From a virus, in the IMG/VR virus record IMGVR_UViG_3300045988_169891, positions 1 through 40,438 of that record: a stretch of 40,438 bases of DNA. The stretch is one strand, 5' to 3'. Each line of letters begins with the position of its first letter. Position 1 is the stretch's first letter. The notes beneath the pieces were generated by a model. It was not told where the DNA came from. It did not search any database and saw only the letters and a program-made list of their open reading frames with translations. The translations under genes were made by a program, and so were the position numbers. This document shows, in pieces, positions 1,548 to 40,350 of the stretch.

Positions 1548-2786
1548 TTGGACATCAAGAACAAGAGCAAGCCGAGCCTGGTAATGCGGATCCTCGCGGT
1601 CGTCGTCGCCGTGCTGCTCGCGTGCACGCCGGCGATCGCGATGGCCGACATGGTCGGCATCGACGTGTCCGGCTGGCAGGCCTCGAACGTGACCTGCACC
1701 GCCAGCTACGACTTCGCCGTCGTCAAGGTCAGTCAGGGCGTCGGCTTCGAGAACGGGAGCTGGCGCGCCCAGGCCAAGTGTGTGACAGACCGGGGCAAGA
1801 GCCTCGGCCTGTACCACTACGCCGGCGGCAACAACGCCGAGGCCGAGGCCGACTACTTCGTCGGCCGGGCGAGGGACTACATCGGCAGGGCCGTGCTCGT
1901 GCTCGACTGGGAGTCCTATCAGAACGCCCAGTGGGGCAATTCCGACTGGGTTCGCCGGTTCGTCCAGCGCGTCCACACGTTCACCGGCGTATGGCCGATG
2001 GTGTACGTGCAGGCCAGCGCGCTGGGCCAGATACCCGGCGACGTGCGCGCCAACTGCGGCCTGTGGGTCGCCCAGTACGCCAGCAACGCGCCCACCGGCT
2101 ACCAGAGCCGACCGTGGAACTACTCGATCTACGGCGAGGCCATGCGCCAGTACACCTCCAACGGCTGGGTCAACGGCTACAACGGGCCGCTCGACCTCAA
2201 CTACTTCCGAGGCGACGCAAGCCAGTGGCAGGCCTACGCCAACCCCGCCGGCGCAGCCAAGCCCGCACCCCCGCCGCAGACCGAGAAGCCGCCGACCCAG
2301 ACCATCGACCTACAGGCACTCGCGACCGCCACCATCCGTGGCGACTACGGCAACGGCCAGCAGCGGCGCGACGCGCTCGGCGCGAACTACGACAAGGTCA
2401 TGGCGATCGTCAACCAACGCCTCGCCGGCACCGCGACCGTAGCGCCGCAGCAGGCCGCGCAGGCCAACACGACCCGCGTGGCCGTCCGCTCCGGCGACAC
2501 CATGAGCGGCATCGCCTCGCGCACCGGCCTGTGGCCGCTGTCCAAGTGGAGCGTGCCCAGCGGCAACCTCAACCTGATCTACCCCGGTCAGGTCGTCACC
2601 TACAACGGCGGCGGCAGCGTCGCCACCGGCAGCAACGCGCCGCCGGCAACCCGTACCGTGACCGTGCGCAGCGGCGACACCCTCAGCGGCATCGCCGCCC
2701 GCCTCGGCATCGGCTACACGCAGCTCACCGGCTATCGCAGCGGCAACCCCAACGTGATCTACCCCGGCGAAGTGCTGCACTACTGA
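1548..2786 (+). CDS. endolysin 1: signal peptide + GH25 muramidase + Cpl-7-like repeat + two LysM domains
   Basis: TTG start after AAGGAGAGG. The N-terminus is hydrophobic with an AIA-MA cleavage-like site. GH25-like motifs are GIDVSGWQ, FAVVKVSQG, GLYHY and LDLNYF. IRGDYGNGQQRRDALG...VNQRL resembles a Cpl-7 (CW_7) repeat. There are two LysM-like blocks (SGDT[ML]SGIA ... IYPG[QE]V). Confidence 0.9.
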   Translation: MDIKNKSKPSLVMRILAVVVAVLLACTPAIAMADMVGIDVSGWQASNVTCTASYDFAVVKVSQGVGFENGSWRAQAKCVTDRGKSLGLYHYAGGNNAEAEADYFVGRARDYIGRAVLVLDWESYQNAQWGNSDWVRRFVQRVHTFTGVWPMVYVQASALGQIPGDVRANCGLWVAQYASNAPTGYQSRPWNYSIYGEAMRQYTSNGWVNGYNGPLDLNYFRGDASQWQAYANPAGAAKPAPPPQTEKPPTQTIDLQALATATIRGDYGNGQQRRDALGANYDKVMAIVNQRLAGTATVAPQQAAQANTTRVAVRSGDTMSGIASRTGLWPLSKWSVPSGNLNLIYPGQVVTYNGGGSVATGSNAPPATRTVTVRSGDTLSGIAARLGIGYTQLTGYRSGNPNVIYPGEVLHY

Positions 2787-2808
2787 ACTACTGAGAACCC
2801 GAACCCAA

Positions 2809-2847
2809 CCTGGGAACCCCGCACCTTAGCCGGGCGGGGTTCCCAGG
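2809..2847 (+). terminator. strong intercistronic hairpin (14-bp perfect stem) between lysin 1 and holin-like gene 1
   Basis: CCTGGGAACCCCGC (2809-2822) pairs with GCGGGGTTCCCAGG (2834-2847). There is no clear T tract, so it may attenuate or stabilise rather than terminate fully. Confidence 0.45.
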
Positions 2848-2872
2848 TTCCAACTGCAGAATCGAGGACAAT

Positions 2873-3139
2873 ATGACCGACGAAAACACCGAACCCAAGA
2901 CCGCCGGCACGGAGCCGACCGCGCCCGATTGGCTGCTGCCGAACCGAGCCTATGACGTGCTCAAATGGCTCGCGCTGATCGTGCTGCCGGCCATCGGCGT
3001 GCTCGTGCAGACCCTCGGCCCCGTATGGGGCTGGACGTGGGCCGATCAGGCCGCGACGACCATCAACGCCGTCGCCCTGGCCATCGGCGTCGTCATCGGC
3101 GCAAGCACCCTCAAGGCCAAGGCATCCAAAACCGAATAA
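2873..3139 (+). CDS. holin-like membrane protein 1 (resembles Dp-1-type phage holins)
   Basis: 88 aa with two TM segments (WLALIVLPAIGVLVQTLGPVW and AVALAIGVVIGA), directly downstream of a lysin. It is a paralogue of 4698..4976. Confidence 0.75.
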   Translation: MTDENTEPKTAGTEPTAPDWLLPNRAYDVLKWLALIVLPAIGVLVQTLGPVWGWTWADQAATTINAVALAIGVVIGASTLKAKASKTE

Positions 3140-3149
3140 CCATAAAAAC

Positions 3150-3194
3150 ACCGCCCCTCCATCCGGCATAACGCTGGACGGAGGGGCGGTTTTC
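3150..3194 (+). terminator. Rho-independent terminator
   Basis: ACCGCCCCTCCATCC (3150-3164) pairs with GGACGGAGGGGCGGT (3176-3190) with one mismatch, followed by TTTTCACGTTTT. Confidence 0.7.
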
Positions 3195-3230
3195 ACGTTT
3201 TGGGAGTAGCTTTCCGAGGCTCATTTTTTT

Positions 3231-3292
3231 GCCCACATTTTGCCCACATTTTTCGTAAAAACAGGTTAAAAACCGTTAAAACCGGTTAAAAC
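3231..3292. repeat. AT-rich spacer with tandem repeats: GCCCACATTTT x2 and GTTAAAA x3 at 10-bp period
   Basis: GCCCACATTTT occurs at 3231-3241 and 3242-3252. GTTAAAA occurs at 3265-3271, 3275-3281 and 3285-3291. The local GC is far below the rest of the genome. Confidence 0.8.
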
Positions 3293-3417
3293 GAGAAAAG
3301 CCGCTCAGCCCTACTCCCGCAAGGCAAAGCGGCCATTTTCCAACCCACTCTCAGCTCAGCGCGTCCTTCAACAGGGGCAAGCCCCGCCACGCGAAGCCGC
3401 GCCGCCGACTGGCGGCC

Positions 3418-4638
3418 ATGCTGGCCGCGGTTCTGACGGCGATGGCCCTGGTGTTCGCGCAGGGCGTCGCGTTCGCGGATAGCGGCATGGACGTCAGCAA
3501 ATGGCAGGGCTGCGTCGGCAGCGGCCAGGCCGCGACCGCCAAAGCGTCCGGCGTCAACTTCGGGTTCGTGAAGGTCACGGAAGGCAACGGGTACACCGAT
3601 TCGGTAGCCGACTGCACCATGCAGTCGTTGAAGGCCAACGGCATCCGTCGCGGCGTCTACCATTTCGCCCGCCCCGACCTGGGCAATAGTCCCGAGGCGG
3701 AGGCCGACTGGTTCGTCAGCCAGACGCGCGGCTACATGCATGACGGGGTGATTCCCGTGTTGGACTGGGAGCCGTCCGGCTCCTACAAGACGTGGAGCTG
3801 GTGGGCGTTGCGCTGGCTCCAGCGCGTCGAGGCCGCATGGGGCGTCAAGCCGATGATCTACACGAGCGCCAGCGTCATCCAGATGACCGACTGGACGAGC
3901 GTGGCCAACGGCAACTACGGCCTGTGGGTCGCCGGCTACCCGCGTGGCTACGCCGGCGAGACCCTGCGGGACCCGGGGGCCGTGCCCTACAGCGTCTCGC
4001 CCTGGCCGTTCGCCGCCGCGTGGCAGTACTCCAGCTCCGGCAACGTGCCCGGCATCGGATCGAGAATCGACGTCAACTGGTTCTACGGCGACGCCGGCAC
4101 CTGGGCCCGCTACGCTGACAGCAAGGCCGGAAGCGCCGCGAACCCCGCCACCCCGAGCCCGACCCCGCAGCAGGGAGCCCCCGTCGGCGACGCGCAGTCG
4201 CTGGCCACCGCAGTGATCCGCGGCGACTATGGCAACGACCCGACCCGCCGCCAGCTGCTCGGCAACCGGTACGCGGAGGTCATGGCCATCGTCAACCAGA
4301 GGCTGCGCGGCAACGGCGGCACCGGAAACGGCAGCGGATACTGGGTCGTGCAGCGAGGCGAATACCTCCGTCTCATCGGCTCCAGAACCGGAGTGCCGTG
4401 GACGACCATCGCCGCGCTCAACGGCATCCGAAGCCCCTACGTCATCTACCCGGGCCAGAAGCTCAGCCTCGGCGGCGCCAACGGCAACAGCGCGGCGAAC
4501 ACAGGCCGCCGATCCATCGTGATCACCGCGGGCGACTGCCTGTGGAACCACTTCGGAGCCGACAGTGCCCGCGTGGCCGCCGCCAATGGCATCAGCAACC
4601 CCAACCTGGTGCGAGCCGGCACCGTCATCCACTACTGA
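3418..4638 (+). CDS. endolysin 2: signal peptide + GH25 muramidase + Cpl-7-like repeat + two LysM-like domains (paralogue of 1548..2786)
   Basis: Same motif order as lysin 1: GMDVSKWQG, FGFVKVTEG, GVYHF, IDVNWF; IRGDYGNDPTRRQLLG...VNQRL; then two LysM-like blocks ending IYPGQK and VRAGTV. The frame is open back to 3280 with a basic stretch (KPRRRLAA) but no ATG/GTG/TTG, so the start is uncertain. Confidence 0.9.
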   Translation: MLAAVLTAMALVFAQGVAFADSGMDVSKWQGCVGSGQAATAKASGVNFGFVKVTEGNGYTDSVADCTMQSLKANGIRRGVYHFARPDLGNSPEAEADWFVSQTRGYMHDGVIPVLDWEPSGSYKTWSWWALRWLQRVEAAWGVKPMIYTSASVIQMTDWTSVANGNYGLWVAGYPRGYAGETLRDPGAVPYSVSPWPFAAAWQYSSSGNVPGIGSRIDVNWFYGDAGTWARYADSKAGSAANPATPSPTPQQGAPVGDAQSLATAVIRGDYGNDPTRRQLLGNRYAEVMAIVNQRLRGNGGTGNGSGYWVVQRGEYLRLIGSRTGVPWTTIAALNGIRSPYVIYPGQKLSLGGANGNSAANTGRRSIVITAGDCLWNHFGADSARVAAANGISNPNLVRAGTVIHY

Positions 4639-5183: not shown

Positions 5184-5237
5184 TCGGCTGGCTGGAGATG
5201 CGACAAGGCTTGTGGTGCAAGGCGTGGAAGCGTTCGC

Positions 5238-5290
5238 GTAATCAGTCTTCCAAACTGATTACGCGGGTTCGATTCCCGTCATCCGCTCCA
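5238..5290 (+). other. attP core candidate: 3' portion of a tRNA (Gly-UCC-like), not a complete tRNA gene
   Basis: T arm GCGGG-TTCGATT-CCCGT, acceptor 3' strand CATCCGC, discriminator T and CCA lie at 5263-5290. The preceding hairpin TCAGT-CTTCCAA-ACTGA would place UCC in the anticodon position. No complementary 5' acceptor strand (GCGGATG) or D arm is present upstream. Confidence 0.7.
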
Positions 5291-8869: not shown

Positions 8870-9526
8870 ATGATGCCGACAGGGAATAGAAGACTTGCAT
8901 CGCAGATGATGAACCCTATGGAGATAAGCCTTGCCGATGAGGTAAGGAAGACGCTGCAGGCGGAATGCTATGGCGCCGCCCTAGCTCTTGCGCTCACAAT
9001 TCCGGATGCCTACGGGCAGATTGCCTTTCCGGAAGAGAAAAAAGTCGGGAAAAGATACATGGACTGGTACCGGCAATACTGTGGATATGCCCTTAGCTCA
9101 AGAATGGGTAAGGACCCGATGCCGGCCTTTGATGCCCTTGCATGTTACAAGCTGCGCTGCGAACTGCTTCACAACGGCGATGCCAATATGGAGACCAAAT
9201 ACCTGTACGAGTTGGATGACCAAGGGAAGCTGATGCGGAATGACGTCAATCTTGAACGCGTCTCGTTCTCATTGCGCATTGGACTGAGTTCGAAACTCGG
9301 CAAGACGTGGGAACGTGACGACGAGGAAAACGCGGAGTACAGCCTCGTCGTATCCGTCGAGGAACTGTGTCTTGCGCTATGTGATGCCGCCGACCGATTC
9401 GACCGGAATACAGAAACGCAATGCCGACCTGAACTGCGACCGCGGATAGTCATAGATGATTTAAGGAACGTGACAGCGTATCGATGGCGGTCGAAACCCC
9501 TGTCGGCAGATGAAGTGGCGGAATGA
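8870..9526 (+). CDS. hypothetical protein with an Rx4H motif (possible HEPN-like fold)
   Basis: 218 aa after a GGAGG Shine-Dalgarno, with lower GC than the flanks. YKLRCELLHNG gives R96-x4-H101 (9155-9172) in a helix-rich context. The family assignment is speculative. Confidence 0.75.
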   Translation: MMPTGNRRLASQMMNPMEISLADEVRKTLQAECYGAALALALTIPDAYGQIAFPEEKKVGKRYMDWYRQYCGYALSSRMGKDPMPAFDALACYKLRCELLHNGDANMETKYLYELDDQGKLMRNDVNLERVSFSLRIGLSSKLGKTWERDDEENAEYSLVVSVEELCLALCDAADRFDRNTETQCRPELRPRIVIDDLRNVTAYRWRSKPLSADEVAE

Positions 9527-9597
9527 TGCCAAAAGACGACGGTAAAAATCTAAACATAGCCGCATCGAGACGGCCAAGAGAACGAGGGGGAATAGAT

Positions 9598-11037
9598 ATG
9601 ACAATGGCAAAATGGGCTGAAAGACTTCTGGCTGGAATCGCCGTCATCGCGCTCGGCTCTTCGCTGGCTGCATGCGGAAATGAAAGAACACAGTCTCAGG
9701 CAACTCCTTCGACCTCGCAGAACCAATCCGCAACCACGACTCCACCGAAAAAGCAGGAAGAACCAAAACCCGAACCGGCGCAGCCAATGGCGGATTTCAT
9801 CAAAGCGTTTGACTCTAACAATGCCACGCCAATCACGGATGCAGTCGAGTTCGATCCGCAGAACCGTGACAGCGGATACTATCGAACGGAATACCGGCTC
9901 GGCGCATTCAATGGATCCAAGGGAACCCACGGCAACGTCGGAAACATGACCATAGACATCGTCGAATATGGATACTGGGGTAAAAACACCAATCTGTGCG
10001 TCTATCTCAGTGGAACACCCGACGACGTCCGTACTGCCTATCCGGCATTGGCAAAATCCGTAGACCCCTCACTCTCGGACAACGATATTCAAGCGGTGCT
10101 GGACAAATCCTCTTCCGGGGGAGATGTGCAAGGAGAACTATCCTTTGCCCCCGTCAAGGCAGACAGTGCAATCCGATTATTTGATCAAACACATCGATGG
10201 AAGCCTGGAGGCATTCATCGATGCCGATCTCAGCAAGACCAAGCAGTAGCAAGCTACATTGAAAGCCAAGAGAAAAGAAGACCAACCATGACAATACGCA
10301 AACGCACCCTCTACTGGATACTCGCCGCGATATTCGCATTCACCGCCATATACGCGCCATTCAGCGACGACAAGGATTCCAGCATACTGGTCACAATCCT
10401 GACCATCCTCCTCTTCATCGCGCTCGCCATACTGTTCGCGCACCTCGCGCGAAAGGTCGACCCCGAGAAGGCGATCCGATTCGGCAAGGCGAAGACCGTG
10501 GCCAGAGCTGCGTCCGTCAACGGGTTGCCGCGCGACTACACATGCATCGACATCGAAACCACCGGACTGCCCGACCAGGATCCGCGAATCATCGAGCTCG
10601 GCGCCGTCCGCATCCGCAACGGTAAGGTATCCGGCACCTACAGCCAACTCGTCAACCCCGGCAAACCCATACCCGCAAAGGTCGCGGAACTCACCGGAAT
10701 CTACGACAGCCTCGTGGCAGACAGCCCCACCATCGCCCAGGCATTGCCGAGCTTCGTCGAATTCTGCGGCACCGACACCCTCGTCGGACACAACATCGAC
10801 CGATTCGACGCGCCCATCATCCAAGCCGAGGCCCAACGCAACAACATCCAACTCCCCGATTTCAACACGATCGACACGTTGCCGCTCGCCGAAACCCTCT
10901 GCCCCGAACTCGACCGCCATCGCGTCGTCGACCTCATCCGGGCGTTCGACATCGGCGACACCGAAGATCACCGCGCAACGCAAGACGCACTGCAGACCTC
11001 GCAGATCTACGAAGAACTCCGCAGGCGAGCCTCATAA
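9598..11037 (+). CDS. as-assembled single ORF: lipoprotein module (lipobox LAAC) + linker + 2 TM + DEDDh 3'-5' exonuclease
   Basis: A lipoprotein signal peptide MTMAKWAERLLAGIAVIALGSSLAAC (Cys codon 9673-9675) follows a GAGGGGG Shine-Dalgarno. There is no in-frame stop until 11037. The segment 10185-10287 translates to R/C/W-rich, non-protein-like sequence. This is probably two genes (see finding). Confidence 0.55.
   Translation: MTMAKWAERLLAGIAVIALGSSLAACGNERTQSQATPSTSQNQSATTTPPKKQEEPKPEPAQPMADFIKAFDSNNATPITDAVEFDPQNRDSGYYRTEYRLGAFNGSKGTHGNVGNMTIDIVEYGYWGKNTNLCVYLSGTPDDVRTAYPALAKSVDPSLSDNDIQAVLDKSSSGGDVQGELSFAPVKADSAIRLFDQTHRWKPGGIHRCRSQQDQAVASYIESQEKRRPTMTIRKRTLYWILAAIFAFTAIYAPFSDDKDSSILVTILTILLFIALAILFAHLARKVDPEKAIRFGKAKTVARAASVNGLPRDYTCIDIETTGLPDQDPRIIELGAVRIRNGKVSGTYSQLVNPGKPIPAKVAELTGIYDSLVADSPTIAQALPSFVEFCGTDTLVGHNIDRFDAPIIQAEAQRNNIQLPDFNTIDTLPLAETLCPELDRHRVVDLIRAFDIGDTEDHRATQDALQTSQIYEELRRRAS
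10288..11037 (+). CDS. membrane-anchored DnaQ-like DEDDh exonuclease (alternative, stand-alone reading)
   Basis: ATG 10288 gives MTIRKR, two TM helices and then ARKVDPEKAIRFGKAK, which obeys the positive-inside rule. Exo I is CIDIETTGL, Exo II is GHNIDRFDAPI and Exo III is HRATQDAL. Confidence 0.6.
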   Translation: MTIRKRTLYWILAAIFAFTAIYAPFSDDKDSSILVTILTILLFIALAILFAHLARKVDPEKAIRFGKAKTVARAASVNGLPRDYTCIDIETTGLPDQDPRIIELGAVRIRNGKVSGTYSQLVNPGKPIPAKVAELTGIYDSLVADSPTIAQALPSFVEFCGTDTLVGHNIDRFDAPIIQAEAQRNNIQLPDFNTIDTLPLAETLCPELDRHRVVDLIRAFDIGDTEDHRATQDALQTSQIYEELRRRAS

Positions 11038-11052
11038 CCATAAACAGCAAAA

Positions 11053-11097
11053 CACCCCGGCGCTCATAACGAGCGACCGGGGCGTTTTTGTTTTTTT
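11053..11097. terminator. bidirectional terminator between convergent units
   Basis: CACCCCGGCGCTC ... GAGCGACCGGGGCG forms an imperfect stem, followed by TTTTTGTTTTTTT. The minus-strand gene ends at 11096. Confidence 0.7.
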
Positions 11098-11428
11098 ATT
11101 CGACTTTAGGTGGCTGTTGCCATTTGGGGTCTTCGGAACTGGCTTTGATTCTGCGGCCTAGTTCCGCCATGAGTTCATCGTCTGACGCATCTCTTAATGC
11201 GTCCTGGCTTTTGATTGCCTTGATGTCGTCATCTGTGAGCAACCCCATGATGATTAGGGGCTCAATGGCGGGTCTGCCGTATGCGCGCGCAATGGCGACG
11301 GCATTTTTTTCTGAGAGTCGATCGGGGAGTTGGCGCCATATGGATGATGCCTGCACCCCAGCTTTTTTAGCGACGGCGTTATAGCTCTCACCGCCAGTTA
11401 TCTTCTCGAACCAATCGTTGATACTCAT
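11096..11428 (-). CDS. HTH DNA-binding protein, CI-like repressor candidate A (110 aa)
   Basis: Internal Met34 of track ORF 11096..11527. NAVAKKAGVQASSIWRQ is an HTH-like segment. It is a paralogue of 11457..11801 (shared W[FY]E, VA[KR]KAG, WRQ, IARAYG). Confidence 0.75.
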   Translation of the reverse strand: MSINDWFEKITGGESYNAVAKKAGVQASSIWRQLPDRLSEKNAVAIARAYGRPAIEPLIIMGLLTDDDIKAIKSQDALRDASDDELMAELGRRIKASSEDPKWQQPPKVE

Positions 11429-17266: not shown

Positions 17267-17764
17267 ATGGGCAGATGGGTCGAAAACGAGAAGAACCGCG
17301 TGAAATCCCGTCACATGGTCGAACAATCGATGGACTGGCTCGACGACGTCGAAATCGGGGATCCGGACGGACGGCCGTTGCGCTGCTGGAGGAGTCGCGA
17401 CTACAGCGCCATGCTGTTCCGCGACCAAGCCAGCGGACTGCTGCGACTGGCCATCACGCGCGTCCAGCTCGACAAATACACGCTCGAATACCGCGACGGC
17501 ATCAGCTGGGACGCATTGCAGCAGATCAAGAACGAGACCATGGGCCCCGACGTGTGGGCCGTCGAATGCTACCCGCCGCAACACCTCGTCCAGAACGTCG
17601 CCAACATGCGCCACCTGTGGATCCTCGAGGAACCACCCGCATTCGGGTGGAAGATACCCACCGGCGAACCCGAGACAACCGATGACGCCGACATCACCGA
17701 AGGCGAACCATACCGGCCCGCCGCATCCACGCAACAGGTCTTCTATTATGAGGGGGAATCATGA
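17267..17764 (+). CDS. hypothetical protein
   Basis: Track ORF, 165 aa. Confidence 0.75.
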   Translation: MGRWVENEKNRVKSRHMVEQSMDWLDDVEIGDPDGRPLRCWRSRDYSAMLFRDQASGLLRLAITRVQLDKYTLEYRDGISWDALQQIKNETMGPDVWAVECYPPQHLVQNVANMRHLWILEEPPAFGWKIPTGEPETTDDADITEGEPYRPAASTQQVFYYEGES

Positions 17765-18756
17765 GCTCACTGCTTTACGGACGCGCGAAACGAATCAAGG
17801 TCGGCGACCGCTCCGCCAAACTCTTTCTGCTGATCCTGTGCGACTACGCGGACGAGAACAACCGCGCATGGCCAAGCATCGACCGGCTCATGGCCGAAGG
17901 CGAGGCCAGCGCAAGCACCGTGCAACGAGCCCTGCGCTACCTCGAAGACCACGGGCTCATCACCCGAGACGAAGACTACGGCACCCGCTACCGCGCAGAC
18001 CGAAGCCCCTACGTCTACCACATCACCCTCGACGGCCATAACCACGTCGAATACAAAAAACGCAAAAAGCAGCAAACCACGAAAAAACGGGGTAGCACCA
18101 GTGACACCCCGTCAGATTCACGGGGTAGCACCCATGACACCCCGCAATCCGACCACGGGGTGTCACCCATGACCTCACGGGGTGTCACCGGTGACTATCA
18201 CGGGGTGTCACCCATGACTTCACGGGGTGTCACCCATGACACCCAATCTCTTAAAGAACCATCATTAGAACCACCAAGAGAGAGTACTCGCACGCAAAAA
18301 ACAAAAATCACCATCGAACAAGCGTTCGACTCCCGCAAACAGGCGCTCGCCCTCTACCGGCCGACACCGGACCTCACCGCGCTCGCCGCCAGCTACGGGC
18401 TCGACCCAGACTGGGAACTCGGAAAGTTCAAGGACGCCTGCCTCGCCAACGGGAAAATCCCATACGACCTCGCCGCCGCCTACCGCAACTGGCTCAAACG
18501 CGGCCGCGAACTCAACATCGGCACCCCAACCGAAACCACGACCACAGCCAGCGACCAAGCCACGGAACTCGAACGCCGAGCCCGCAAAATCCTCGACACC
18601 AGCACACCGCTCAAAAACCGCCAACCCGACGACGGCGAGCGCCTGCGCTGGCTGCCACACGTCACCCGACTGCTCGCCCAGGGCACCGACGCGGCCCGCA
18701 TCGTGGAACTCCTGTGCCAGGCCATCGACCGGGGCGAACTGGACGAGGCCGCGTGA
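17761..18756 (+). CDS. winged-helix/HTH replication initiator-like protein containing internal iterons
   Basis: The N-terminal FLLILCDYADENNRAWPSIDRLMAEGEASASTVQRALRYLEDHGLI is a typical HTH of phage replication/organiser proteins. The middle of the gene carries six DNA repeats. Confidence 0.8.
   Translation: MSSLLYGRAKRIKVGDRSAKLFLLILCDYADENNRAWPSIDRLMAEGEASASTVQRALRYLEDHGLITRDEDYGTRYRADRSPYVYHITLDGHNHVEYKKRKKQQTTKKRGSTSDTPSDSRGSTHDTPQSDHGVSPMTSRGVTGDYHGVSPMTSRGVTHDTQSLKEPSLEPPRESTRTQKTKITIEQAFDSRKQALALYRPTPDLTALAASYGLDPDWELGKFKDACLANGKIPYDLAAAYRNWLKRGRELNIGTPTETTTTASDQATELERRARKILDTSTPLKNRQPDDGERLRWLPHVTRLLAQGTDAARIVELLCQAIDRGELDEAA
18088..18244 (+). repeat. six direct ~18-23-bp iterons CGGGGT(A/G)(G/T)CACC(C/A/G)(A/G)TGAC: candidate replication origin
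   Basis: Copies start at 18088, 18121, 18156, 18178, 18201 and 18223, spaced 33, 35, 22, 23 and 22 bp. Several extend to an internal inverted repeat GGGGTGTCA/TGACACCCC. Confidence 0.7.
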
Positions 18757-19034
18757 TGGGCAGCATGCAAGCCACCATCGACTGGCGGACAGCCACACCC
18801 GAAGAGCTCGACGGCCACCGGTGCATCATCACCACCGTGGACGGCACGATCATCGACGGATACCTCAAAGCCATCCCGCCATTCACCCCCGAATACCAGC
18901 TCACCAGGTTCGTGCTCCACGACCGAGACCTCTGCCTCGGACAACTGCGCATCCTGTCCCTCAACCCCAAACACGGCACGGCAATCCTCCAACCACACAT
19001 CCGAACACTCACCGTCACACAAGACCACCGATAA
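18756..19034 (+). CDS. hypothetical protein (92 aa)
   Basis: The ATG overlaps the previous stop (TGATG). Internal Met of track ORF 18714..19034. Confidence 0.65.
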   Translation: MGSMQATIDWRTATPEELDGHRCIITTVDGTIIDGYLKAIPPFTPEYQLTRFVLHDRDLCLGQLRILSLNPKHGTAILQPHIRTLTVTQDHR

Positions 19035-19054
19035 CCACAGAAAGGACAGAAACC

Positions 19055-19396
19055 ATGAACAACGACGGCATCATCAGCCTCATCAAAACGGCGCTCGCCG
19101 CCAACTGCCAGATCAGTCTGACATTCACGCCCAAGGCATTCCTCGGAGACGCCGACGAAGAAGGCCCCGAAGCGCACGACTGTACGACGCAGCTGCCGGA
19201 CCATGACGGACTCTGGTACGACAACACGGACAATCTCTGGTGGATCTCCAGCGACACGGCGGTATGCATCCGCGAGGACGGCGACTGGAGCATGGGGGAC
19301 TTGGAGATAGCCAAGCACTCCATCAAATCCGGCAGCATCAGCATGTTCGCCCCATTCCGCCCAGCCACGGTAACGACACAAGGAAAAGAATCATGA
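19055..19396 (+). CDS. hypothetical protein (113 aa)
   Basis: ATG follows AAAGGACAGAAACC. Internal Met of track ORF 18821..19396. Confidence 0.7.
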   Translation: MNNDGIISLIKTALAANCQISLTFTPKAFLGDADEEGPEAHDCTTQLPDHDGLWYDNTDNLWWISSDTAVCIREDGDWSMGDLEIAKHSIKSGSISMFAPFRPATVTTQGKES

Positions 19397-19668
19397 AACA
19401 AACCACAAGAATCAGCACGCTTATCTGCACCATCCTCGGCATCATCGCGCTCGCCGGATGCGAGGGCACTCCCATCGACTCTTCGGCTGATAAACACACC
19501 GAAGCGGTGACCCAGAGCGAATGCTCCACCTACAACGCCCAGTGGGAAACCTGCACGATCACGATGCCGGACAGCCGCCGCGTGACCTGTATCGCACACG
19601 ACAGCAACGCCGGCATCTCCTGCGACTGGGACCACGCGGACGGAGCCGACAAAGGATGGACGGAATAA
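19393..19668 (+). CDS. small Cys-rich lipoprotein (91 aa)
   Basis: ATGA overlap. The signal peptide MKQTTRISTLICTILGIIALAGC has a LAGC lipobox. The mature part has five further Cys residues. Confidence 0.7.
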   Translation: MKQTTRISTLICTILGIIALAGCEGTPIDSSADKHTEAVTQSECSTYNAQWETCTITMPDSRRVTCIAHDSNAGISCDWDHADGADKGWTE

Positions 19669-19856
19669 GCGTCAAACAGTCCATCGAAATCGAAACCAAA
19701 GGTTACGCCACGCTCATGATGGGAGTCGCGCCAGCAGGACAATTCAAAATCCGCTTCGCCGACTCCGGAGAACATGAAATCGATTTGGCGGGACGTGCAG
19801 GCACTCAACAAGTTCCTCGCACAAGTTCTGGATCGAGACATACCGGAGGAACCACA

Positions 19857-20087
19857 ATGGCAATCCTGAAACACACATACAAAGTCACCATCATCCGCAC
19901 CGGCATCGGATACGACATCTTCATCAACGAATTCGCCACCGACGGCACCCGCCGCGAATACGAACGACGACACCACACGTGGGCCCTAACCAGTCACGGA
20001 GCCGACCGTGCGGCCCAACGACTCATCAGCCGCATCAAACGACAAAACCAGCGAGACGAACACCCACGCGAATACACCATCGAATAG
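19857..20087 (+). CDS. hypothetical protein (76 aa)
   Basis: ATG follows GGAGGAACCACA. The same frame is open back to 19655, so the true start is ambiguous (see finding). Confidence 0.55.
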   Translation: MAILKHTYKVTIIRTGIGYDIFINEFATDGTRREYERRHHTWALTSHGADRAAQRLISRIKRQNQRDEHPREYTIE

Positions 20088-20094
20088 GACGACA

Positions 20095-20220
20095 ATGAGC
20101 AACAAACCGAATCGAATCACCGACATCCTCGTCAACATCGCCAGCATCGTAACCGTCACCGGATGGGCGGCAGCTGTCGTCCTGCTCATCATCAAACTCG
20201 GCATCTGGGTATTCCAATGA
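20095..20220 (+). CDS. 41-aa membrane peptide
   Basis: Internal Met of track ORF 20008..20220. The TM segment is ILVNIASIVTVTGWAAAVVLLIIKLGIWV. Confidence 0.5.
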   Translation: MSNKPNRITDILVNIASIVTVTGWAAAVVLLIIKLGIWVFQ

Positions 20221-20450
20221 TGAGCGAGACCGACTGACTGCCACACGCCGCCTGCAAAACCGCAGACCCAGACCTGTTCTTCCCCAGCACACCCGCCGAA
20301 GAACAAGCAGCAAAACGAATCTGCGCCACATGCCCCGTCCAACAAAACTGCGAACACTACGCCAACACCCACTCCATCAACAGCCACCACCTCACCGGCA
20401 TCTGGGGAGGAAAAACTCTACAAACCCCGCAACCCAAGAAAGAAGACCAC
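20217..20450 (+). CDS. WhiB-like [4Fe-4S] transcription-factor domain, interrupted by in-frame TGA (20235-20237) and continuous in frame with 20451..21212
   Basis: Hand translation: MMSETD*LPHAACKTADPDLFFPSTPAEEQAAKRICATCPVQQNCEHYA...LTGIWGGK. This shows the four-Cys pattern C-x(n)-C-x2-C-x5-C plus the DPDLFFP and GIWGG motifs. The ATG forms an ATGA overlap with the previous stop. There is no ATG/GTG/TTG between 20238 and 20451. Confidence 0.7.
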
Positions 20451-21212
20451 ATGAACCAAAAACAGCGAATCTGCCCAGTCTGCAACACCACCGCGCTCGC
20501 CGATGATGACTATGTGTGCAAGGCGTGCGCCTGGTGCTGGCAGACGGACATGCTGCAGCTGGCCGGTCTGATCCCCGATCTGGAGTTGGTGGCGGCGAAA
20601 CAGGCCAGTCCCTCACCACGGAACCAGGGAGCCAAAGGCAATCAGGGCAACGCCCCGCTGCCGATCAGCGAGCGCCCGTTTGATTTGCTTGAGCGGATTC
20701 GACGTTATGGTCTGAGCGTGTATCTGCTGGCCGGTGTGCGTCGGCGTGAGGATGAGAGCACGGTGAGCCTGATCACCGGGCTGGTGAACATGGATGGGTT
20801 CGCCCGGGTGGCTGGTGCGGCTCAGCTCGCGGTGACCGGTCATGAGCTGATTGGCGAGGCGTGGCGGATGTTCGTGCCTCGTGAGCCTCGCACGTGGGCG
20901 GGTGAGTGTCCGTCGTGCGAGGCTCAGGTGTATGCGTCGTTGTCGGCCAAGGTCGCGTATTGCGATGAGTGCGGTGGTCTCATCGATCTGACTTGGCTGA
21001 GGGCCGAGACGCTGAGGCGATTGTCCGTGAGCACGAAGACGTTCACGGCGGGGGAGCTGAGCCGGTGGCTCAAGTCATGGGGGCTCAAGGTGTCGAAGCG
21101 CAGCATCCAACGCTGGGCGAAGGACGGGCAGATCATCGTGGGGCCGGAGGATGCCGATGGTCGTCGCACCTACCAGATCGGGAGCATCCTGCGCAAGCTC
21201 AACGGCAAATAA
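20451..21212 (+). CDS. zinc-ribbon (CPVC..CKAC; CPSC..CDEC) protein with C-terminal HTH
   Basis: Track ORF, 253 aa. There are two CxxC pairs at each of two sites. The C-terminal FTAGELSRWLKSWGLKVSKRSIQRWAKDGQI is MerR/excisionase-like HTH. Confidence 0.8.
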   Translation: MNQKQRICPVCNTTALADDDYVCKACAWCWQTDMLQLAGLIPDLELVAAKQASPSPRNQGAKGNQGNAPLPISERPFDLLERIRRYGLSVYLLAGVRRREDESTVSLITGLVNMDGFARVAGAAQLAVTGHELIGEAWRMFVPREPRTWAGECPSCEAQVYASLSAKVAYCDECGGLIDLTWLRAETLRRLSVSTKTFTAGELSRWLKSWGLKVSKRSIQRWAKDGQIIVGPEDADGRRTYQIGSILRKLNGK

Positions 21213-21320
21213 ACTGGGCGCTGGGCTTGCGACACGCCGAAGGGGCTGGTGCAATCCGATTTGGCGCGGTATACATGCTACATGTGGTGTTTGGTGTAAG
21301 CACCATTAATCAAATCTTCT

Positions 21321-21356
21321 GAGAGCCCCGAACGGACAACCGTTTCGGGGCTCTCG
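21321..21356 (+). terminator. hairpin at the early/late boundary
   Basis: GAGAGCCCCGAACGG-ACAA-CCGTTTCGGGGCTCTC, a stem of about 15 bp with one bulge and no T tract. Confidence 0.5.
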
Positions 21357-21378
21357 CATATCCAGCCAAGGTACCGGC

Positions 21379-21693
21379 ATGAGTTCGAACCGTACCCACA
21401 ACAGGGCATTCAAAAAAGCCAAACAGGCATTCTTCGAAGACGGCAAACGGCTGGACGCCCTAGACGATCCCGCAGCCGACTGCTGGATATGCCGTGGCCG
21501 CATCGACTACAGCGTGCCGCCCGGCACCACGGACATGAGCCATGAGCTCGACCATTACTATCCGGTGCGCGACTATCCAGACCTGCAGGACGATCCCGCA
21601 GGCTTCCGCCACTCACACCGCAAATGCAACCGCGAGCGCGGTGCCGGCCAGCCCCGGCTCGACCTGGGCGATGTCATCCCCGCCTGGTGGTAG
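21379..21693 (+). CDS. HNH endonuclease (packaging-associated)
   Basis: CWICRG ... HELDHYYP ... HSHRKCNRERG (H-N-H with a Cys pair). It lies just upstream of the terminase genes. Confidence 0.85.
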   Translation: MSSNRTHNRAFKKAKQAFFEDGKRLDALDDPAADCWICRGRIDYSVPPGTTDMSHELDHYYPVRDYPDLQDDPAGFRHSHRKCNRERGAGQPRLDLGDVIPAWW

Positions 21694-21718
21694 CCGACCA
21701 ATCGAAAGGACTTGCGTC

Positions 21719-22069
21719 ATGGACAACGACCACAGCATCTGCCAACGATTGGCCATGATGCTCGACGAGGATCCGTCGTGCACGATACTGATCATCGGCC
21801 GATACATGCCGCCGGTGCGCGCCGAATACAACAAGGTCAGGCATCTCACGCGCAAGGCCAAGCTCCGGCCGACGCTCGCCAAGGCCGGGCATCTGCGGTC
21901 CGTGACCGCGCAGCAAGGCAGGCTTGAGGCGTTCGCGCCCATCGGCCTGGCCCGTGGCCGGCGTGCCCGCGCCGTGCTTCACATCGGCGAGCGCGATGAC
22001 CACATCGAGATGGTGCTTGATGCGTTCCGTGCGTCCGGCGCGATCGTTTACACGTCGTTGGGCGTCTGA
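21719..22069 (+). CDS. hypothetical protein (116 aa)
   Basis: Internal Met of track ORF 21542..22069. Confidence 0.6.
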   Translation: MDNDHSICQRLAMMLDEDPSCTILIIGRYMPPVRAEYNKVRHLTRKAKLRPTLAKAGHLRSVTAQQGRLEAFAPIGLARGRRARAVLHIGERDDHIEMVLDAFRASGAIVYTSLGV

Positions 22070-36961: not shown

Positions 36962-38070
36962 GCGGAATCAACCAGACCCGCGCCATACCGGCGGGAACGC
37001 ACGCCGTATGGTGCGGCGACAGCGTCACCCAGGGCACTGGTGCCAGTGCGACGGCGAAACGATACAGCACGCTGGCCAGCGGCGAACTGAACCTGACCGA
37101 ACACAACTACGCGAAAACCAACGCCGGATACCTGATCGACGGCAACACCATCAGTATGCAGCTCGACGCGGCCAACGCGGATGCCGGCTATCCACATGAT
37201 CAGGTCGGCTACGTGTTCCTGATGGCCGGATTGACCGACTCCTACGAGTCATTGGCCAACATGCAGCAGACGGTCGCGGACACGATCGCCAAAGCCAAGA
37301 GGCTGTTTCCCGTGGCGCGCATCGTCGTGGGCGTAGGTCCCGGCTGCATCCCCGATGCCACCGATGCCGAGGCGATCGCGCGACAGGGGCATGTGCTCAC
37401 CGCGATCACCCTCGCGGGCACCTCGGCCGACGCGCTCGTCATCCACAACATGCGCGCCATCTGTGGCTCCGACCACGACATGCACGCCACCGGCATCAAC
37501 CCAAACGACGAAGGTATGAGGCTCCTCGCACAAGCCGTCGTCACGAGCGTCGACGCCGACAAGGGCGAACCCTTGGATACGCCGGTCACCGATCTGACCC
37601 GCGTGTACTCGTCGCCGGGCGCCGACTGGGCCTCCCGTCAGGTCAACGCGCAACGCAAACGCGAGGCATCGAAGAAAGAGGCGAACCGGCCCACCGGCAC
37701 CGAACTGACCCAACTGACCTCGAAACTCGACGAACTCACCCAGGCACAGGGCCTGCAGCAGGTCATACTGCAGCAGCAACAGGAACAGTTGGCCGAGCAG
37801 CAGCGGATGCTGAAGGAGCAGCAGGATCAGTTCGCGGCGCAGCAGAAGCAGTTGAAGTCGGTGCAGGACCAGCAGGCGAGCATGCTCAGCACATTGCAGT
37901 CGCAACAGACCCAGCTGGGCCAGATGCAAAGCAATCTTGAGAACAGCATTCGCTCGTATATCAACACGAACCTGGTCCCGACCCTGAACGCGAACTTCGC
38001 GAAGGTGGACGACAGGTTCGACAAGCTCGAGGCGAGGGTCGGCAAGCTCGAACAGGGCACGCCGGCGTGA
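36958..38070 (+). CDS. tail protein: N-terminal SGNH/GDSL-like hydrolase domain + Gln-rich coiled coil
   Basis: GTGA overlap. Block I is VWCGDSVTQG and block III-like is LMAGLTDS. The block V region reads GINPNDEG, with Asn where His is expected, so catalysis is uncertain. The C-terminal 130 aa are heptad-like and Q-rich. Confidence 0.8.
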   Translation: MSGINQTRAIPAGTHAVWCGDSVTQGTGASATAKRYSTLASGELNLTEHNYAKTNAGYLIDGNTISMQLDAANADAGYPHDQVGYVFLMAGLTDSYESLANMQQTVADTIAKAKRLFPVARIVVGVGPGCIPDATDAEAIARQGHVLTAITLAGTSADALVIHNMRAICGSDHDMHATGINPNDEGMRLLAQAVVTSVDADKGEPLDTPVTDLTRVYSSPGADWASRQVNAQRKREASKKEANRPTGTELTQLTSKLDELTQAQGLQQVILQQQQEQLAEQQRMLKEQQDQFAAQQKQLKSVQDQQASMLSTLQSQQTQLGQMQSNLENSIRSYINTNLVPTLNANFAKVDDRFDKLEARVGKLEQGTPA

Positions 38071-38095
38071 CCTGTGGATTGATCGGAGGCATCTG

Positions 38096-38458
38096 ATGGC
38101 AGTTTTCGGCAGGAAGGTGGGTCGCGCGGACCTGCGTTTGGTGCGCGGCGACAGCGAGCGGGTGTCCGTCTGGTGGCGGCAACGGAACGTGCTGACGGGC
38201 GTGGTGACGCCGGTGGACATGTCGTGGTGGAGCGGCCGACTGGAATTGCGCAGCCCGGACGGTTCCGAGCTGTGGTATTCGCAGGCGTGCGGCTCGATGA
38301 CGTCGGACGGGTATGCGATCGCGGACATCCCGCCGAGCGCGCTGTCTGGGGACGTGTGGGTGCAGCGGCGTGCGGGCCGGTGGCGGATCAGGGCCACGGG
38401 TCCGGGCGGCGGCGTGGTGCGCACGCTCGCCTGGGGTTATTTCACTTTGAGCGACTGA
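38096..38458 (+). CDS. hypothetical tail-associated protein (120 aa)
   Basis: Track ORF after a GGAGG Shine-Dalgarno. Confidence 0.7.
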   Translation: MAVFGRKVGRADLRLVRGDSERVSVWWRQRNVLTGVVTPVDMSWWSGRLELRSPDGSELWYSQACGSMTSDGYAIADIPPSALSGDVWVQRRAGRWRIRATGPGGGVVRTLAWGYFTLSD

Positions 38459-38478
38459 TCGAATCGGAGGAATTGATT

Positions 38479-40350
38479 ATGGTTGAGCAGATCGTGGATT
38501 TGGTCGAGGCGGGCATGCCCGTCTCGTCGGACACGGCGGCGGTCGCGGCCGGCGCGGGTTCGGCGGCCGGATGGGAGGCCGGGCGCATGGCGGCCTCCGA
38601 ACTGGCCGGGGACATGCGTGACCGTCTGAACGCCCTGTCGTCCCGTTTGGACGTGGTCGTCGCGTCCGGGTCGGATGGCGGGGACGTGGGAACCGAGTTG
38701 AGGGACGTGCGCGTGGGCGCGGACGGGACAACGTACGGGTCGGCCGGCGAGGCAGTCAGGGCGCAGGCGCGATTGTGTGTTTCGGTGAGCGAGGCGTCGG
38801 CGTCGGGCGTGTCGGGCGTGCGCGTCATATTACACAGGGGCGAGGTACTGGACAACAACGGCATAAGATTCAACCCCGTCGACGGGGTCCTATGCTACGT
38901 GACCGACGTGGTCATGGCGTCGGCCGGCGAGGAGTACGTGTACACGGGATCGTCCGACGGCGCGCCGTCCGTATTCTTCTACGATTCGCTGATGCACAAT
39001 ATCGGGAGCGTGAAAACCGATAACCCCAACGGGGAGTACGTGTTCCAAGTGCCGGGTGGCGCCTCGTACATGCGTGCCCAGTCGTTCGCATGGACGGATT
39101 CAACCTCGGACGTCACGCTGTCGCTGCGCGAGAAGGACGGCGAGGCCATACGGTGGATGCTGGACGGCAGGTACGCGACCGCGCTTAACGTCGGCAGGGT
39201 GTCGGACGCCGTCGGCGGCGTCCTGTCCGACGTGGGAGGCCTGGTGTACGGGCGTGGCTTTCTCCTCGGCGACGAGACCGTGCTGCGCCCGAGGTACGAC
39301 GAGATGACGTCCGGCGCGTTCCTGAACCAATCGGGCGGTGCCACCCCATTTGACAGTGGGTACACGTCCGACTACATCGACCTCGACCTGCTCGGAGACG
39401 CGTACGTCACCGTGAGGACCATGGTGGCGTATGAGTCGCGCGCCGCCGCGCTCTACAATCGCGACTACGAATTCATCCGCATCCTCGGCGGCAACGAGGA
39501 CACGAGTGAAATCACGAGCGTGGAATTTACCGTGTCCCTGCGCGAGTGCAGGAGGATCGGTGGCGCGTACATACGGTTCGGGTTCTTGGGATACATCGTT
39601 CCGGATGCGAACAAATTCCAGGTCGTCTCGACGGCTCCGGTGGCACTCGGCGACTACATCGATTCCAGGGCCGTGGCGGCCTATGCATCGAACGTCCTGT
39701 ACGGAAAGAAGTACGTCGCCTGCGGTGACAGCTTCACCGCAGGCGCGGGACTGACCGGCGACGACTATGACCACGACCTCGGGGCCGTGAAATCCTATCC
39801 GTGGTGGATTGCCAAGCGCAACGGCATGACCCTAGTCAACGAGGCCATATCCGGCAGCGACTTTACGAACATCGAAGGGGCGAACAACCCGTTCTCCGTG
39901 GAACGTTACCTAGCTGTCCCTAACGACAGCGACTATATCACGCTCATGTTCGGCCTGAACGAATACAACTTAACTGCCGAACAGATCGGCTCCAGACAGG
40001 ACACCGGCAACACGACCCTGTGGGGCGCGTACAACACCGTGTTCGAACGTTTCCTGACCGACATGCCGTACGCGAAGATTGGCGTCATCATACCGGACGC
40101 GTGGATGACCGAGACATACGCCGACGCGATCAAGGACATCTGCCGATACTGGGGAGTGCCCTGGTTGGACCTCAAGGGCGACCCGTCCGTGCCCATGGGA
40201 ATCGGCGGACGCAACGGGATCGACGTCAGCCCGCGTGCTGTGGAACTGCGCAACAAGGCGTTCAGATTGTCCGACGCCGACGCCCACCCCAACGCCAAGG
40301 CCCACGAATACCGGAGCACCATCATCGAACACTTCCTCAGAACCCTGTAA
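38479..40350 (+). CDS. tail fibre / receptor-binding protein with C-terminal SGNH/GDSL esterase domain
   Basis: ATG follows CGGAGGAATTGATT (internal Met of track ORF 38173..40350), 623 aa. C-terminal motifs are YVACGDSFTAG, AISGSD, FGLNEYN and DADAHPN. Its last 31 nt recur at 1-31. Confidence 0.85.
   Translation: MVEQIVDLVEAGMPVSSDTAAVAAGAGSAAGWEAGRMAASELAGDMRDRLNALSSRLDVVVASGSDGGDVGTELRDVRVGADGTTYGSAGEAVRAQARLCVSVSEASASGVSGVRVILHRGEVLDNNGIRFNPVDGVLCYVTDVVMASAGEEYVYTGSSDGAPSVFFYDSLMHNIGSVKTDNPNGEYVFQVPGGASYMRAQSFAWTDSTSDVTLSLREKDGEAIRWMLDGRYATALNVGRVSDAVGGVLSDVGGLVYGRGFLLGDETVLRPRYDEMTSGAFLNQSGGATPFDSGYTSDYIDLDLLGDAYVTVRTMVAYESRAAALYNRDYEFIRILGGNEDTSEITSVEFTVSLRECRRIGGAYIRFGFLGYIVPDANKFQVVSTAPVALGDYIDSRAVAAYASNVLYGKKYVACGDSFTAGAGLTGDDYDHDLGAVKSYPWWIAKRNGMTLVNEAISGSDFTNIEGANNPFSVERYLAVPNDSDYITLMFGLNEYNLTAEQIGSRQDTGNTTLWGAYNTVFERFLTDMPYAKIGVIIPDAWMTETYADAIKDICRYWGVPWLDLKGDPSVPMGIGGRNGIDVSPRAVELRNKAFRLSDADAHPNAKAHEYRSTIIEHFLRTL

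What the first reader, a model, noticed from the sequence alone, without database searches (positions are those of the whole stretch)
20217..21212. WhiB-like gene with an in-frame TGA exactly at the conserved Trp position, running without a stop into a zinc-ribbon/HTH ORF
Seen in sequence:
- ATG 20217 forms this genome's usual ATGA coupling overlap with the upstream gene.
- It opens MMSETD-TGA-LPHAACKTADPDLFFP...RICATCPVQQNC...GIWGGK, a clear WhiB domain with four Cys.
- The TGA (20235-20237) lies 6 residues before the first Cys. That is where WhiB proteins carry a conserved Trp (M. tuberculosis WhiB1 begins MDWRHKAVC).
- Between the TGA and 20451 there is no ATG, GTG or TTG, so the WhiB domain has no conventional start of its own.
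- There is also no stop before the 253-aa zinc-ribbon/HTH ORF, which is in the same frame.
- The stop context is TGA-C.

Established knowledge: UGA is the leakiest stop codon, UGA-C is a weak context, and near-cognate readthrough of UGA inserts Trp (as in Qbeta A1).

Inference: either a recent TGG-to-TGA nonsense mutation or assembly error, or programmed low-level readthrough. Readthrough would restore the conserved Trp and give a 331-aa WhiB/zinc-ribbon/HTH fusion alongside the 253-aa product started at ATG 20451. Since WhiB proteins bind sigma region 4, such a fusion could act as a sequence-specific late-gene activator. The gene lies just before the early/late boundary hairpin at 21321.
Basis: partly seen in the sequence, partly recalled or inferred. 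Interest (0 to 1): 0.75.

Follow-up and report, generated by a model that had tools for sequence, protein, structure and literature searches.

The report
Broken WhiB gene in Bifidobacterium phage
The in-frame TGA and the stop-free run into the next gene are two recent, genuine mutations (a Trp-to-stop change and one extra A) that knocked out a small WhiB regulator gene in one clone of a common Bifidobacterium longum temperate phage; this is an ordinary dead gene, not programmed stop-codon read-through.

Summary
ATG 20217 overlaps the upstream stop. TGA 20235-20237 sits where WhiB proteins carry a conserved Trp. No ATG/GTG/TTG follows before 20451, and the frame runs without a stop into the 253-aa gene.

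Six independent close relatives (L001, L013-L016, L019) have TGG at that codon and four A's where the window has five (20411-20415). With four A's, WhiB is a stand-alone 78-aa protein (B. longum WP_242668464.1, on 329 contigs) whose stop overlaps the next gene's ATG. More distant Bifidobacterium relatives also keep WhiB separate, with its own stop, a 29-83 nt gap and the Trp conserved. The 331-aa fusion does not occur among about 15 billion proteins.

The lesions are not assembly errors. TGA plus five A's recur together in at least five other assemblies, and the clone appears in at least ten, including excised-form contigs at about 1,900x coverage. TGA ends 24 of 38 genes, and the phage has no tRNA.

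Verdict: a recently pseudogenised WhiB gene in a minority clone (about 6%) that still excises. Interest is low.

The parts
20095..20220 (+). Upstream 41-aa gene. Its TGA (20218-20220) overlaps the WhiB ATG (ATGA coupling).
   Evidence: 100% identical protein in the intact relative L017.
20217..20237 (+). All that is still translatable of WhiB from its normal start: MMSETD followed by a stop.
   Evidence: the same ATG starts the intact 78-aa WhiB in L001, L017 and WP_242668464.1.
20235..20237 (+). TGA nonsense codon derived from TGG (Trp7). G-to-A at 20237, private to this clone.
   Evidence: G in L001, L013, L014, L015 and L016 and in L017 and L019. A in the window, L018/L020/L050 (one scaffold), L021, L022, L024 and L051.
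20238..20450 (+). WhiB-domain coding remnant (four Cys, FFP, GIWGG) with no ATG/GTG/TTG of its own. A pseudogene body.
20411..20415 (+). Run of five A's where all intact relatives have four. This +1 frameshift right after GIWGGK replaces the basic tail LYKPRNPRKKTT* and puts the WhiB frame in register with the next gene.
20452..20454 (+). TGA that is the WhiB stop codon in intact relatives (ATGA overlap with the 253-aa gene). It is out of frame in the window because of the extra A.
   Evidence: L001 WhiB 2768-3004, next gene 3001-3762.
20451..21212 (+). Intact 253-aa gene with two Cys4 zinc-ribbon-like motifs and a C-terminal Xis/MerR-like winged helix (phrog_908, function unknown). Translated from its own ATG.
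   Evidence: (phrog_908 E=1.9e-26). The exact protein is on 52 contigs, including genomes with intact WhiB.
21321..21355 (+). Strong hairpin in the gap before the HNH and terminase genes. No T tract.
   Evidence: sequence; not flagged as a terminator; only sub-threshold Rfam matches.
18765..18765 (+). G-to-A (Val4Met in the 92-aa gene 18756-19034). A third private change, used as a marker of the lesion clone.
   Evidence: Met form on 29 contigs, Val form on 443.
10144..10148 (+). Run of five C's where four relatives have four; the extra base was placed at 10148 by the alignment and the run start is read from the printed context. This second private +1 insertion makes a 216-aa lipoprotein-like gene run on into the 249-aa RNase_T exonuclease gene (ORF 9523-11037).

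Best explanation
The window is the excised, circular genome (40,319 bp unique) of a temperate Bifidobacterium longum siphovirus-like phage. Its ancestors and most of its living relatives carry a stand-alone 78-aa WhiB-like gene. That gene starts at an ATGA overlap with the gene before it and ends at an ATGA overlap with the 253-aa zinc-ribbon/HTH gene after it. In one clone, the one sampled here, this gene took two mutations: G-to-A at 20237 (Trp7 TGG to TGA), and one extra A in a four-A run at 20411-20415, a +1 frameshift directly after GIWGGK. Either mutation alone inactivates WhiB. Because of the frameshift, the dead WhiB frame happens to read on into the next gene, so the 'fusion' is a by-product and not a design. 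Ribosomes starting at 20217 stop after six codons, and the 253-aa protein is made from its own ATG 20451 (inferred). Shown here: the alleles, their polarity, their linkage and their recurrence in independent assemblies. Inferred: loss of WhiB function, and that this phage can still excise and reach high copy without WhiB.
For: 1) Six close relatives from different assemblies (L001, L013, L014, L015, L016/L017, L019) have TGG and four A's. 2) Over 4,192 nt (17700-21891) the window differs from L016 at only three positions, and in each case the window is the odd one out: 18765, 20237 and 20411. 3) With four A's, WhiB ends at the TGA of the ATGA overlap and is a separate 78-aa protein. That exact protein is named WhiB family regulator of B. 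longum and sits on 329 contigs. 4) Relatives whose downstream protein is 54-64% identical (L002, L010, B. miconis, B. biavatii) also have a separate WhiB, with its own stop, a 29-83 nt gap and the Trp conserved. 5) No fusion appears among homologues, which are all 252-259 aa, and the exact 331-aa fusion is absent from about 15 billion proteins. 6) The lesions are real: TGA and five A's occur together in ERZ28651829, ERZ784401 (1,976x), ERZ784495, ERZ784764 and ERZ783785, linked to three other private changes. 7) WhiB is the only one of 35 genes with an in-frame stop relative to L017. 8) TGA is the normal stop of 24 of 38 genes, 7 of them TGA-C, including large terminase; there are no tRNA genes and no Rfam element nearby. 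9) The same clone carries another +1 homopolymer insertion (10148) that likewise makes one gene run on into the next, so this kind of accident recurs here.
Against: Two of the three private differences in 4.2 kb fall within the 237-nt WhiB gene. That is unlikely by chance if uncorrected (p about 0.009). Conditional on the finding having been picked because of one of them, p is about 0.11, so some non-independence cannot be excluded, for example a second hit selected because of the first. UGA-C is a leaky context (established knowledge), so a trace of read-through product is physically likely. No expression data are available, so loss of function is inferred from sequence alone.
Confidence: 0.9

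Rival explanations
1. Programmed, selected UGA read-through inserts Trp and yields a functional 331-aa WhiB/zinc-ribbon/HTH fusion alongside the 253-aa protein.
For: The TGA sits exactly at the conserved Trp, and near-cognate decoding of UGA gives Trp (established knowledge, Q-beta A1). The context is TGA-C and the frame is open to 21212. The RNA downstream folds slightly better than shuffles, z=-1.97. The allele persists in a clone that still excises and reaches high copy.
Against: Neither the TGA nor the in-frame continuity is conserved. All intact relatives have TGG, four A's and a stop between the genes. The downstream sequence is identical in the TGG relatives, so no stimulatory structure evolved for read-through. 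The only stable helix starts about 40 nt after the stop. The frameshift removes the basic C-terminal tail present in the intact homologues. TGA-C also ends 7 ordinary genes here. No WhiB/phrog_908 fusion exists in the databases searched.
Confidence: 0.03
2. Sequencing or assembly error: the true sequence is TGG with four A's.
For: A homopolymer length error plus a single substitution are typical artefacts, and the window is a metagenome assembly with a 119-nt k-mer overlap at its ends.
Against: The same two alleles occur together in at least five other assemblies from different runs and assemblers, including one at 1,976x coverage. They are linked to three further private changes seen in at least ten assemblies from ENA and Logan. 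No other gene is damaged by an in-frame stop.
Confidence: 0.02
3. WhiB is still made from a non-canonical start, for example re-initiation at CTG 20238 directly after the TGA. That would give a Trp-less WhiB fused to the downstream protein.
For: CTG follows the stop immediately (TGA-CTG), and terminating ribosomes can re-initiate nearby (established knowledge).
Against: CTG is a very poor bacterial start. The product would lack the Trp whose loss destabilises the cluster in WhiB1. It would still carry the frameshifted tail. The arrangement is not conserved in any relative.
Confidence: 0.03
4. TGA is reassigned (code 4 or 25) or encodes selenocysteine in this phage.
For: Some gut phages recode stop codons (established knowledge).
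Against: TGA ends 24 of 38 genes, including terminase, portal and capsid. There is no suppressor or other tRNA. The homologous residue is Trp encoded by TGG, not Cys or Sec. No other gene has an in-frame TGA.
Confidence: 0.005

Closest known systems
WhiB-like (Wbl) regulators of actinobacteriophages and prophages; specifically the B. longum prophage WhiB WP_242668464.1
   Same: The window's 20217-20450 is 99% identical in DNA to the gene for this 78-aa protein. It keeps the four Cys, the FFP aromatic patch and the GIWGG turn. A 2025 preprint counts WhiB in 122 bifidophages.
   Different: The window copy has a nonsense codon at Trp7 and a +1 frameshift after GIWGGK, so it is a pseudogene and not a working member.
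Programmed UGA read-through, e.g. the Q-beta A1 coat extension (from established knowledge)
   Same: A UGA that would be decoded as Trp by near-cognate tRNA, with an open frame beyond it.
   Different: In Q-beta the stop and the extension are conserved and essential. Here both the stop and the open frame are private to one clone and absent from every relative.
Slipped-strand homopolymer frameshifts that inactivate or merge genes in Actinobacteria (from established knowledge; not tested here as a family)
   Same: All three private indels of this clone are +1 insertions in short homopolymer runs (C4 to C5, T6 to T7, A4 to A5). Two of them make one ORF run on into the next.
   Different: The runs are short (4-7 nt). 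Every contig of this clone that covers a site shows the same run length there, so there is no sign of reversible phase variation.
phrog_908 and mycobacteriophage 'helix-turn-helix DNA binding' proteins near the right genome end (ThulaThula gp73, Che9c gp75)
   Same: The 253-aa downstream protein matches phrog_908 (E=1.9e-26). Its C-terminal ~100 residues (zinc ribbon plus winged helix) are about 30% identical to these mycobacteriophage proteins.
   Different: The N-terminal zinc ribbon and helical middle region are specific to the Bifidobacterium group. There is no solved structural homologue for the whole protein, and its function is unknown.

Membership tests
WhiB-like (Wbl) protein family, PF02467 | Sequence match above the curated Pfam threshold | tested here: met
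   63.3 bits against a cut-off of 23.6, E=3e-17, with W substituted for the stop; phrog_472 E=9.4e-19.
WhiB-like (Wbl) protein family, PF02467 | Four cluster-binding Cys (C-Xn-C-X2-C-X5-C), an aromatic patch and the G[IV]WGG turn | tested here: met
   C13, C36, C39, C45; F21-F22; GIWGG at residues 61-65. Roles of the aromatic residues from PMC6954389.
WhiB-like (Wbl) protein family, PF02467 | An intact, translatable open reading frame | tested here: not met
   TGA at codon 7, no canonical start after it, and a +1 frameshift at codon 66 relative to six intact relatives.
Programmed stop-codon read-through | The leaky stop codon is conserved among relatives | tested here: not met
   TGG in L001, L013-L017 and L019; Trp codon in L002, L010, L027, L042 and L043.
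Programmed stop-codon read-through | The downstream extension is in frame and stop-free in relatives, or occurs as a true fusion elsewhere | tested here: not met
   In relatives WhiB is in another frame (ATGA overlap) or separated by a stop plus 29-83 nt. There is no fusion among homologues, and the exact fusion is not in the collection.
Programmed stop-codon read-through | A stimulatory context or RNA structure just 3' of the stop | tested here: inconclusive
   z=-1.97. The main helix begins about 40 nt downstream, and the sequence is identical in the TGG relatives. TGA-C also ends 7 normal genes.
Programmed stop-codon read-through | A detectable extended protein product | not testable with these tools
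   Needs a western blot, mass spectrometry or a reporter assay.
Stop-codon reassignment (TGA as a sense codon) | TGA is not used as a terminator, in-frame TGAs occur in many genes, and a suppressor tRNA is present | tested here: not met
   TGA ends 24 of 38 genes. Only WhiB has an in-frame stop. No tRNA genes.
phrog_908 (the downstream 253-aa protein) | Profile match over most of the length | tested here: met
   E=1.9e-26, residues 3-250 on profile positions 49-307 of 361.

The most novel reading that the evidence does not exclude
The two WhiB lesions are not independent decay. The extra A came first and created a harmful constitutive WhiB/zinc-ribbon/HTH fusion. The Trp7-to-TGA change was then selected to reduce it to a trace read-through level, and the residual 331-aa fusion has a function in this clone. 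The evidence leaves only a little room for this: two of three private changes in 4.2 kb fall in WhiB (conditional p about 0.11), and the clone still excises and reaches about 1,900x coverage.
Probability: 0.03. Interest if true: 0.5.

Novelty: already known. Interest (0 to 1): 0.08.

Why it matters
It matters mainly as a negative result. A suggestive pattern, a stop codon exactly at a conserved Trp plus an open frame into a DNA-binding protein, turns out to be two ordinary mutations once close relatives are aligned, so no new recoding mechanism is needed. There is a modest positive by-product. This is a natural WhiB-null clone of a common B. longum temperate phage that is still found integrated and, at very high coverage, in the excised circular form. 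That suggests (inferred, not shown) that the phage WhiB is dispensable for excision and propagation. It also gives experimenters a ready-made natural knock-out to compare with the intact allele.

Tried and rejected
1) Megablast and blastn of the region against 50,697 phage records found no match, so annotated phages gave no help. tblastn of the 253-aa protein hit only the C-terminal ~100 residues in mycobacteriophages.

2) An exact-pattern scan of GTDB species genomes gave 0 hits. The search for related loci with the wide alignment A2 failed on genome contigs; it worked with the narrower A3.

3) I first read the T insertions at 19784 and 19813 and the transitions at 20175 and 20920 as private to the window. 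This was wrong: L016 shares them, so they are polymorphisms or private to L014.

4) Assembly error was rejected after the lineage look-ups.

5) Stop-codon reassignment, selenocysteine and a suppressor tRNA were rejected.

6) Foldseek of the 253-aa model against the PDB gave no hit at E<=0.001; there was only weak local similarity to Xis/MerR winged helices and to ribosomal zinc ribbons.

7) Rfam found nothing at the locus.

8) The terminator scan did not flag the 21321 hairpin.

9) I considered that the long exonuclease ORF (9523-11037) might be the ancestral state. It is not supported: the two-gene relatives have a proper lipoprotein signal and a separate ATG, and the outgroup L047 has its exonuclease domain at the N-terminus.

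Full report
**Observation.**
- ATG 20217 overlaps the TGA of the upstream 41-aa gene (ATGA).
- The frame reads MMSETD, then TGA (20235-20237, followed by C), then LPHAACKTADPDLFFP...CATCPVQQNC...GIWGGK. It continues without a stop through ATG 20451 to TAA 21210-21212.
- With W in place of the stop, the first 78 residues match Pfam Whib at 63.3 bits (cut-off 23.6, E=3e-17). Profile position 1 lies on the TGA codon, and PHROG WhiB families agree.
- No ATG, GTG or TTG lies in frame between the TGA and 20451; only CTG and ATC occur.
- The position is the conserved Trp. In M. tuberculosis WhiB1, Trp3 lies six residues before Cys9 and is one of four conserved aromatic residues around the cluster pocket. 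W3A loses the cluster and sigma-A binding (PMC6954389).

**What the window is.**
- The first and last 119 nt are identical, the signature of a circular assembly. The unique genome is 40,319 bp.
- Gene order: an HNH gene on the minus strand, two GH25 lysins, an attachment site with a tRNA-like sequence (5224-5287), a tyrosine integrase, an M78 peptidase, an exonuclease, SSB, ParB, a replication protein, the WhiB remnant, the 253-aa gene, HNH, small and large terminase, portal, protease, capsid and tail genes.
- In a 330-kb metagenome scaffold the same sequence is integrated, with bacterial genes up to the junction at window 5242.
- The host is Bifidobacterium longum, as named on the exact intact WhiB and neighbouring proteins. 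More distant relatives sit in B. miconis and B. biavatii.

**The decisive comparison.**
- The 253-aa protein has close homologues, all 252-259 aa, and none is a fusion.
- In the DNA upstream of those homologues, L001 has a 78-aa WhiB gene that ends in an ATGA overlap with the 253-aa gene. It is therefore in a different frame from that gene.
- A base-by-base alignment shows why. L001 has TGG where the window has TGA, and four A's where the window has five.
- The same holds for IMG/VR contigs L013 and L014, metagenome contig L015, the 265-kb contig L016/L017 and L019.
- Over 4,192 nt the window differs from L016 at only three positions, and in each the window is the odd one out: 18765 G-to-A (Val4Met in a neighbouring gene), 20237 G-to-A (Trp7 to stop) and the extra A at 20411-20415.
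- The stop is therefore a recent nonsense mutation. The stop-free continuity into the next gene is the by-product of a separate +1 frameshift directly after GIWGGK.
- In relatives whose downstream protein is 54-64% identical, WhiB is again a separate gene with its own stop, a 29-83 nt gap and Trp at the same position.
- The hypothetical 331-aa fusion does not exist as an exact sequence among about 15 billion proteins. The intact 78-aa WhiB is on 329 contigs.

**Error or real?** The lesions are real.
- I used the private Val4Met protein as a lineage marker. It is listed in 43 blocks of the collection.
- Every retrieved contig that reaches the WhiB site carries TGA and five A's together: ERZ28651829, ERZ784401 (1,976x coverage), ERZ784495 and ERZ784764, and ERZ783785.
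- The clone also carries two other private +1 homopolymer insertions, C at 10148 and T at 11304. These are seen in further assemblies, including Logan SRR1159060 and SRR1162616.
- L054, at 1,903x coverage, spans the attachment junction in the excised arrangement. L052, at 3.3x, is in the integrated arrangement. The clone therefore still excises and reaches high copy.
- By contig counts the clone is a minority: the Met marker is on 29 contigs and the Val form on 443.
- WhiB is the only one of 35 genes with an in-frame stop relative to L017, so this is not general decay or a poor assembly.

**Recoding alternatives.**
- TGA ends 24 of 38 called genes, 7 of them followed by C, including large terminase. 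The codon is not reassigned and the TGA-C context is not distinctive here.
- There are no tRNA genes and no Rfam element at the locus.
- The RNA after the stop folds only marginally better than shuffles (z=-1.97). Its main helix starts about 40 nt downstream, and the sequence is identical in the TGG relatives.
- A trace of read-through at UGA-C is physically likely (established knowledge), but nothing indicates that it is selected.

**The second accident.** The extra C at 10148 shifts the last ~30 codons of a 216-aa lipoprotein-like gene so that it runs on into the 249-aa RNase_T exonuclease gene. This creates a 504-aa ORF (9523-11037) in the window, where four relatives have two proper genes. 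The same kind of accidental ORF merger therefore happened twice in this clone, which makes the WhiB case look even less special.

**Statistics.** Two of the three private changes in 4.2 kb fall in the 237-nt WhiB gene. The unconditional probability is about 0.009. The finding was selected because of one of them, so the fair figure is the chance that one of the other two also lands there, about 0.11. That is compatible with chance. It also leaves room for a second hit that was neutral after the first, or for a compensating pair of mutations.

**The partner protein.**
- The 253-aa protein belongs to phrog_908, function unknown.
- An AlphaFold model (mean pLDDT 81) has no full-length match in the PDB. 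The C-terminal ~60 residues weakly resemble Xis/MerR winged helices, and the Cys-pair regions resemble small zinc ribbons.
- Its C-terminal module is shared with mycobacteriophage 'HTH DNA binding' proteins near the right genome end.
- The adjacency of WhiB and this gene is conserved across Bifidobacterium prophages. That could reflect a functional link, but always as two separate proteins.

**Verdict.** This is a recently pseudogenised copy of an already annotated B. longum prophage WhiB gene. Interest is low. The only mildly useful by-product is a natural WhiB-null clone that still excises.

Noticed in passing
window 1-119 and 40320-40438; attachment region about 5224-5290: The window is a circular assembly with a 119-nt terminal repeat, in the excised (attP) arrangement. 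A tRNA-like sequence (Rfam tRNA, 30.6 bits) spans the chromosome/phage junction at 5242. The same phage is integrated next to bacterial genes in scaffold TAFT14-1_SAMN01773464 scaffold_2.
   Followed up: partly
window 9523-11037 (C-run ending at 10148): A +1 C insertion private to this clone makes a 216-aa lipoprotein-like gene run on into the 249-aa membrane-anchored RNase_T exonuclease gene. Four relatives have two separate genes. This is a second accidental ORF merger in the same genome.
   Followed up: yes
window 11304 (T-run), minus-strand gene 11096-11428: A third private +1 homopolymer insertion (T6 to T7). The minus-strand gene here is called at 110 aa in this clone and 80-88 aa in relatives; the consequence was not examined. 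All three private indels of the clone are +1 insertions in homopolymers, and the substitutions private to it in the compared stretches (5974, 6808, 18765, 20237) are all transitions.
   Followed up: partly
window 20217-21212 and loci L001, L002, L010, L027, L042, L043: The gene pair WhiB then 253-aa zinc-ribbon/winged-helix protein (phrog_908), sitting just upstream of HNH and terminase, is conserved across Bifidobacterium prophages. It is coupled by an ATGA overlap in the B. longum group and separated by 29-83 nt elsewhere. The 253-aa protein has no solved structural homologue.
   Followed up: partly
window 1548-2786 and 3418-4638: Two tandem lysin genes with the same architecture (GH25 + CW_7 + LysM), separated by about 600 nt.
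   Followed up: no
whole window; exceptions 20401-21000 and 37800-39000: The + strand has a strong, nearly genome-wide A>T and C>G skew. The 253-aa gene and a stretch of the tail region have the opposite GC skew, which hints at mosaic acquisition.
   Followed up: no
window 21321-21355: A 12-bp perfect inverted repeat (GAGAGCCCCGAA...TTCGGGGCTCTC) lies in the gap before the HNH/terminase block, without a T tract. It is not flagged as an intrinsic terminator and has only sub-threshold Rfam matches.
   Followed up: partly
window 19784 and 19813 (region 19669-19856, with no called gene): L014 lacks one T at each of these two positions compared with the window and L016, so there are single-base length polymorphisms in a stretch where no gene is called in any relative.
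   Followed up: partly
loci L021 (ERZ784401) and L054 (ERZ783585): Contigs of this clone reach about 1,900-2,000x k-mer coverage, while integrated-form contigs from what looks like the same assembly series (ERZ783xxx/ERZ784xxx accessions) have 3-5x. This suggests virion-enriched samples or strong induction; sample metadata were not available.
   Followed up: no
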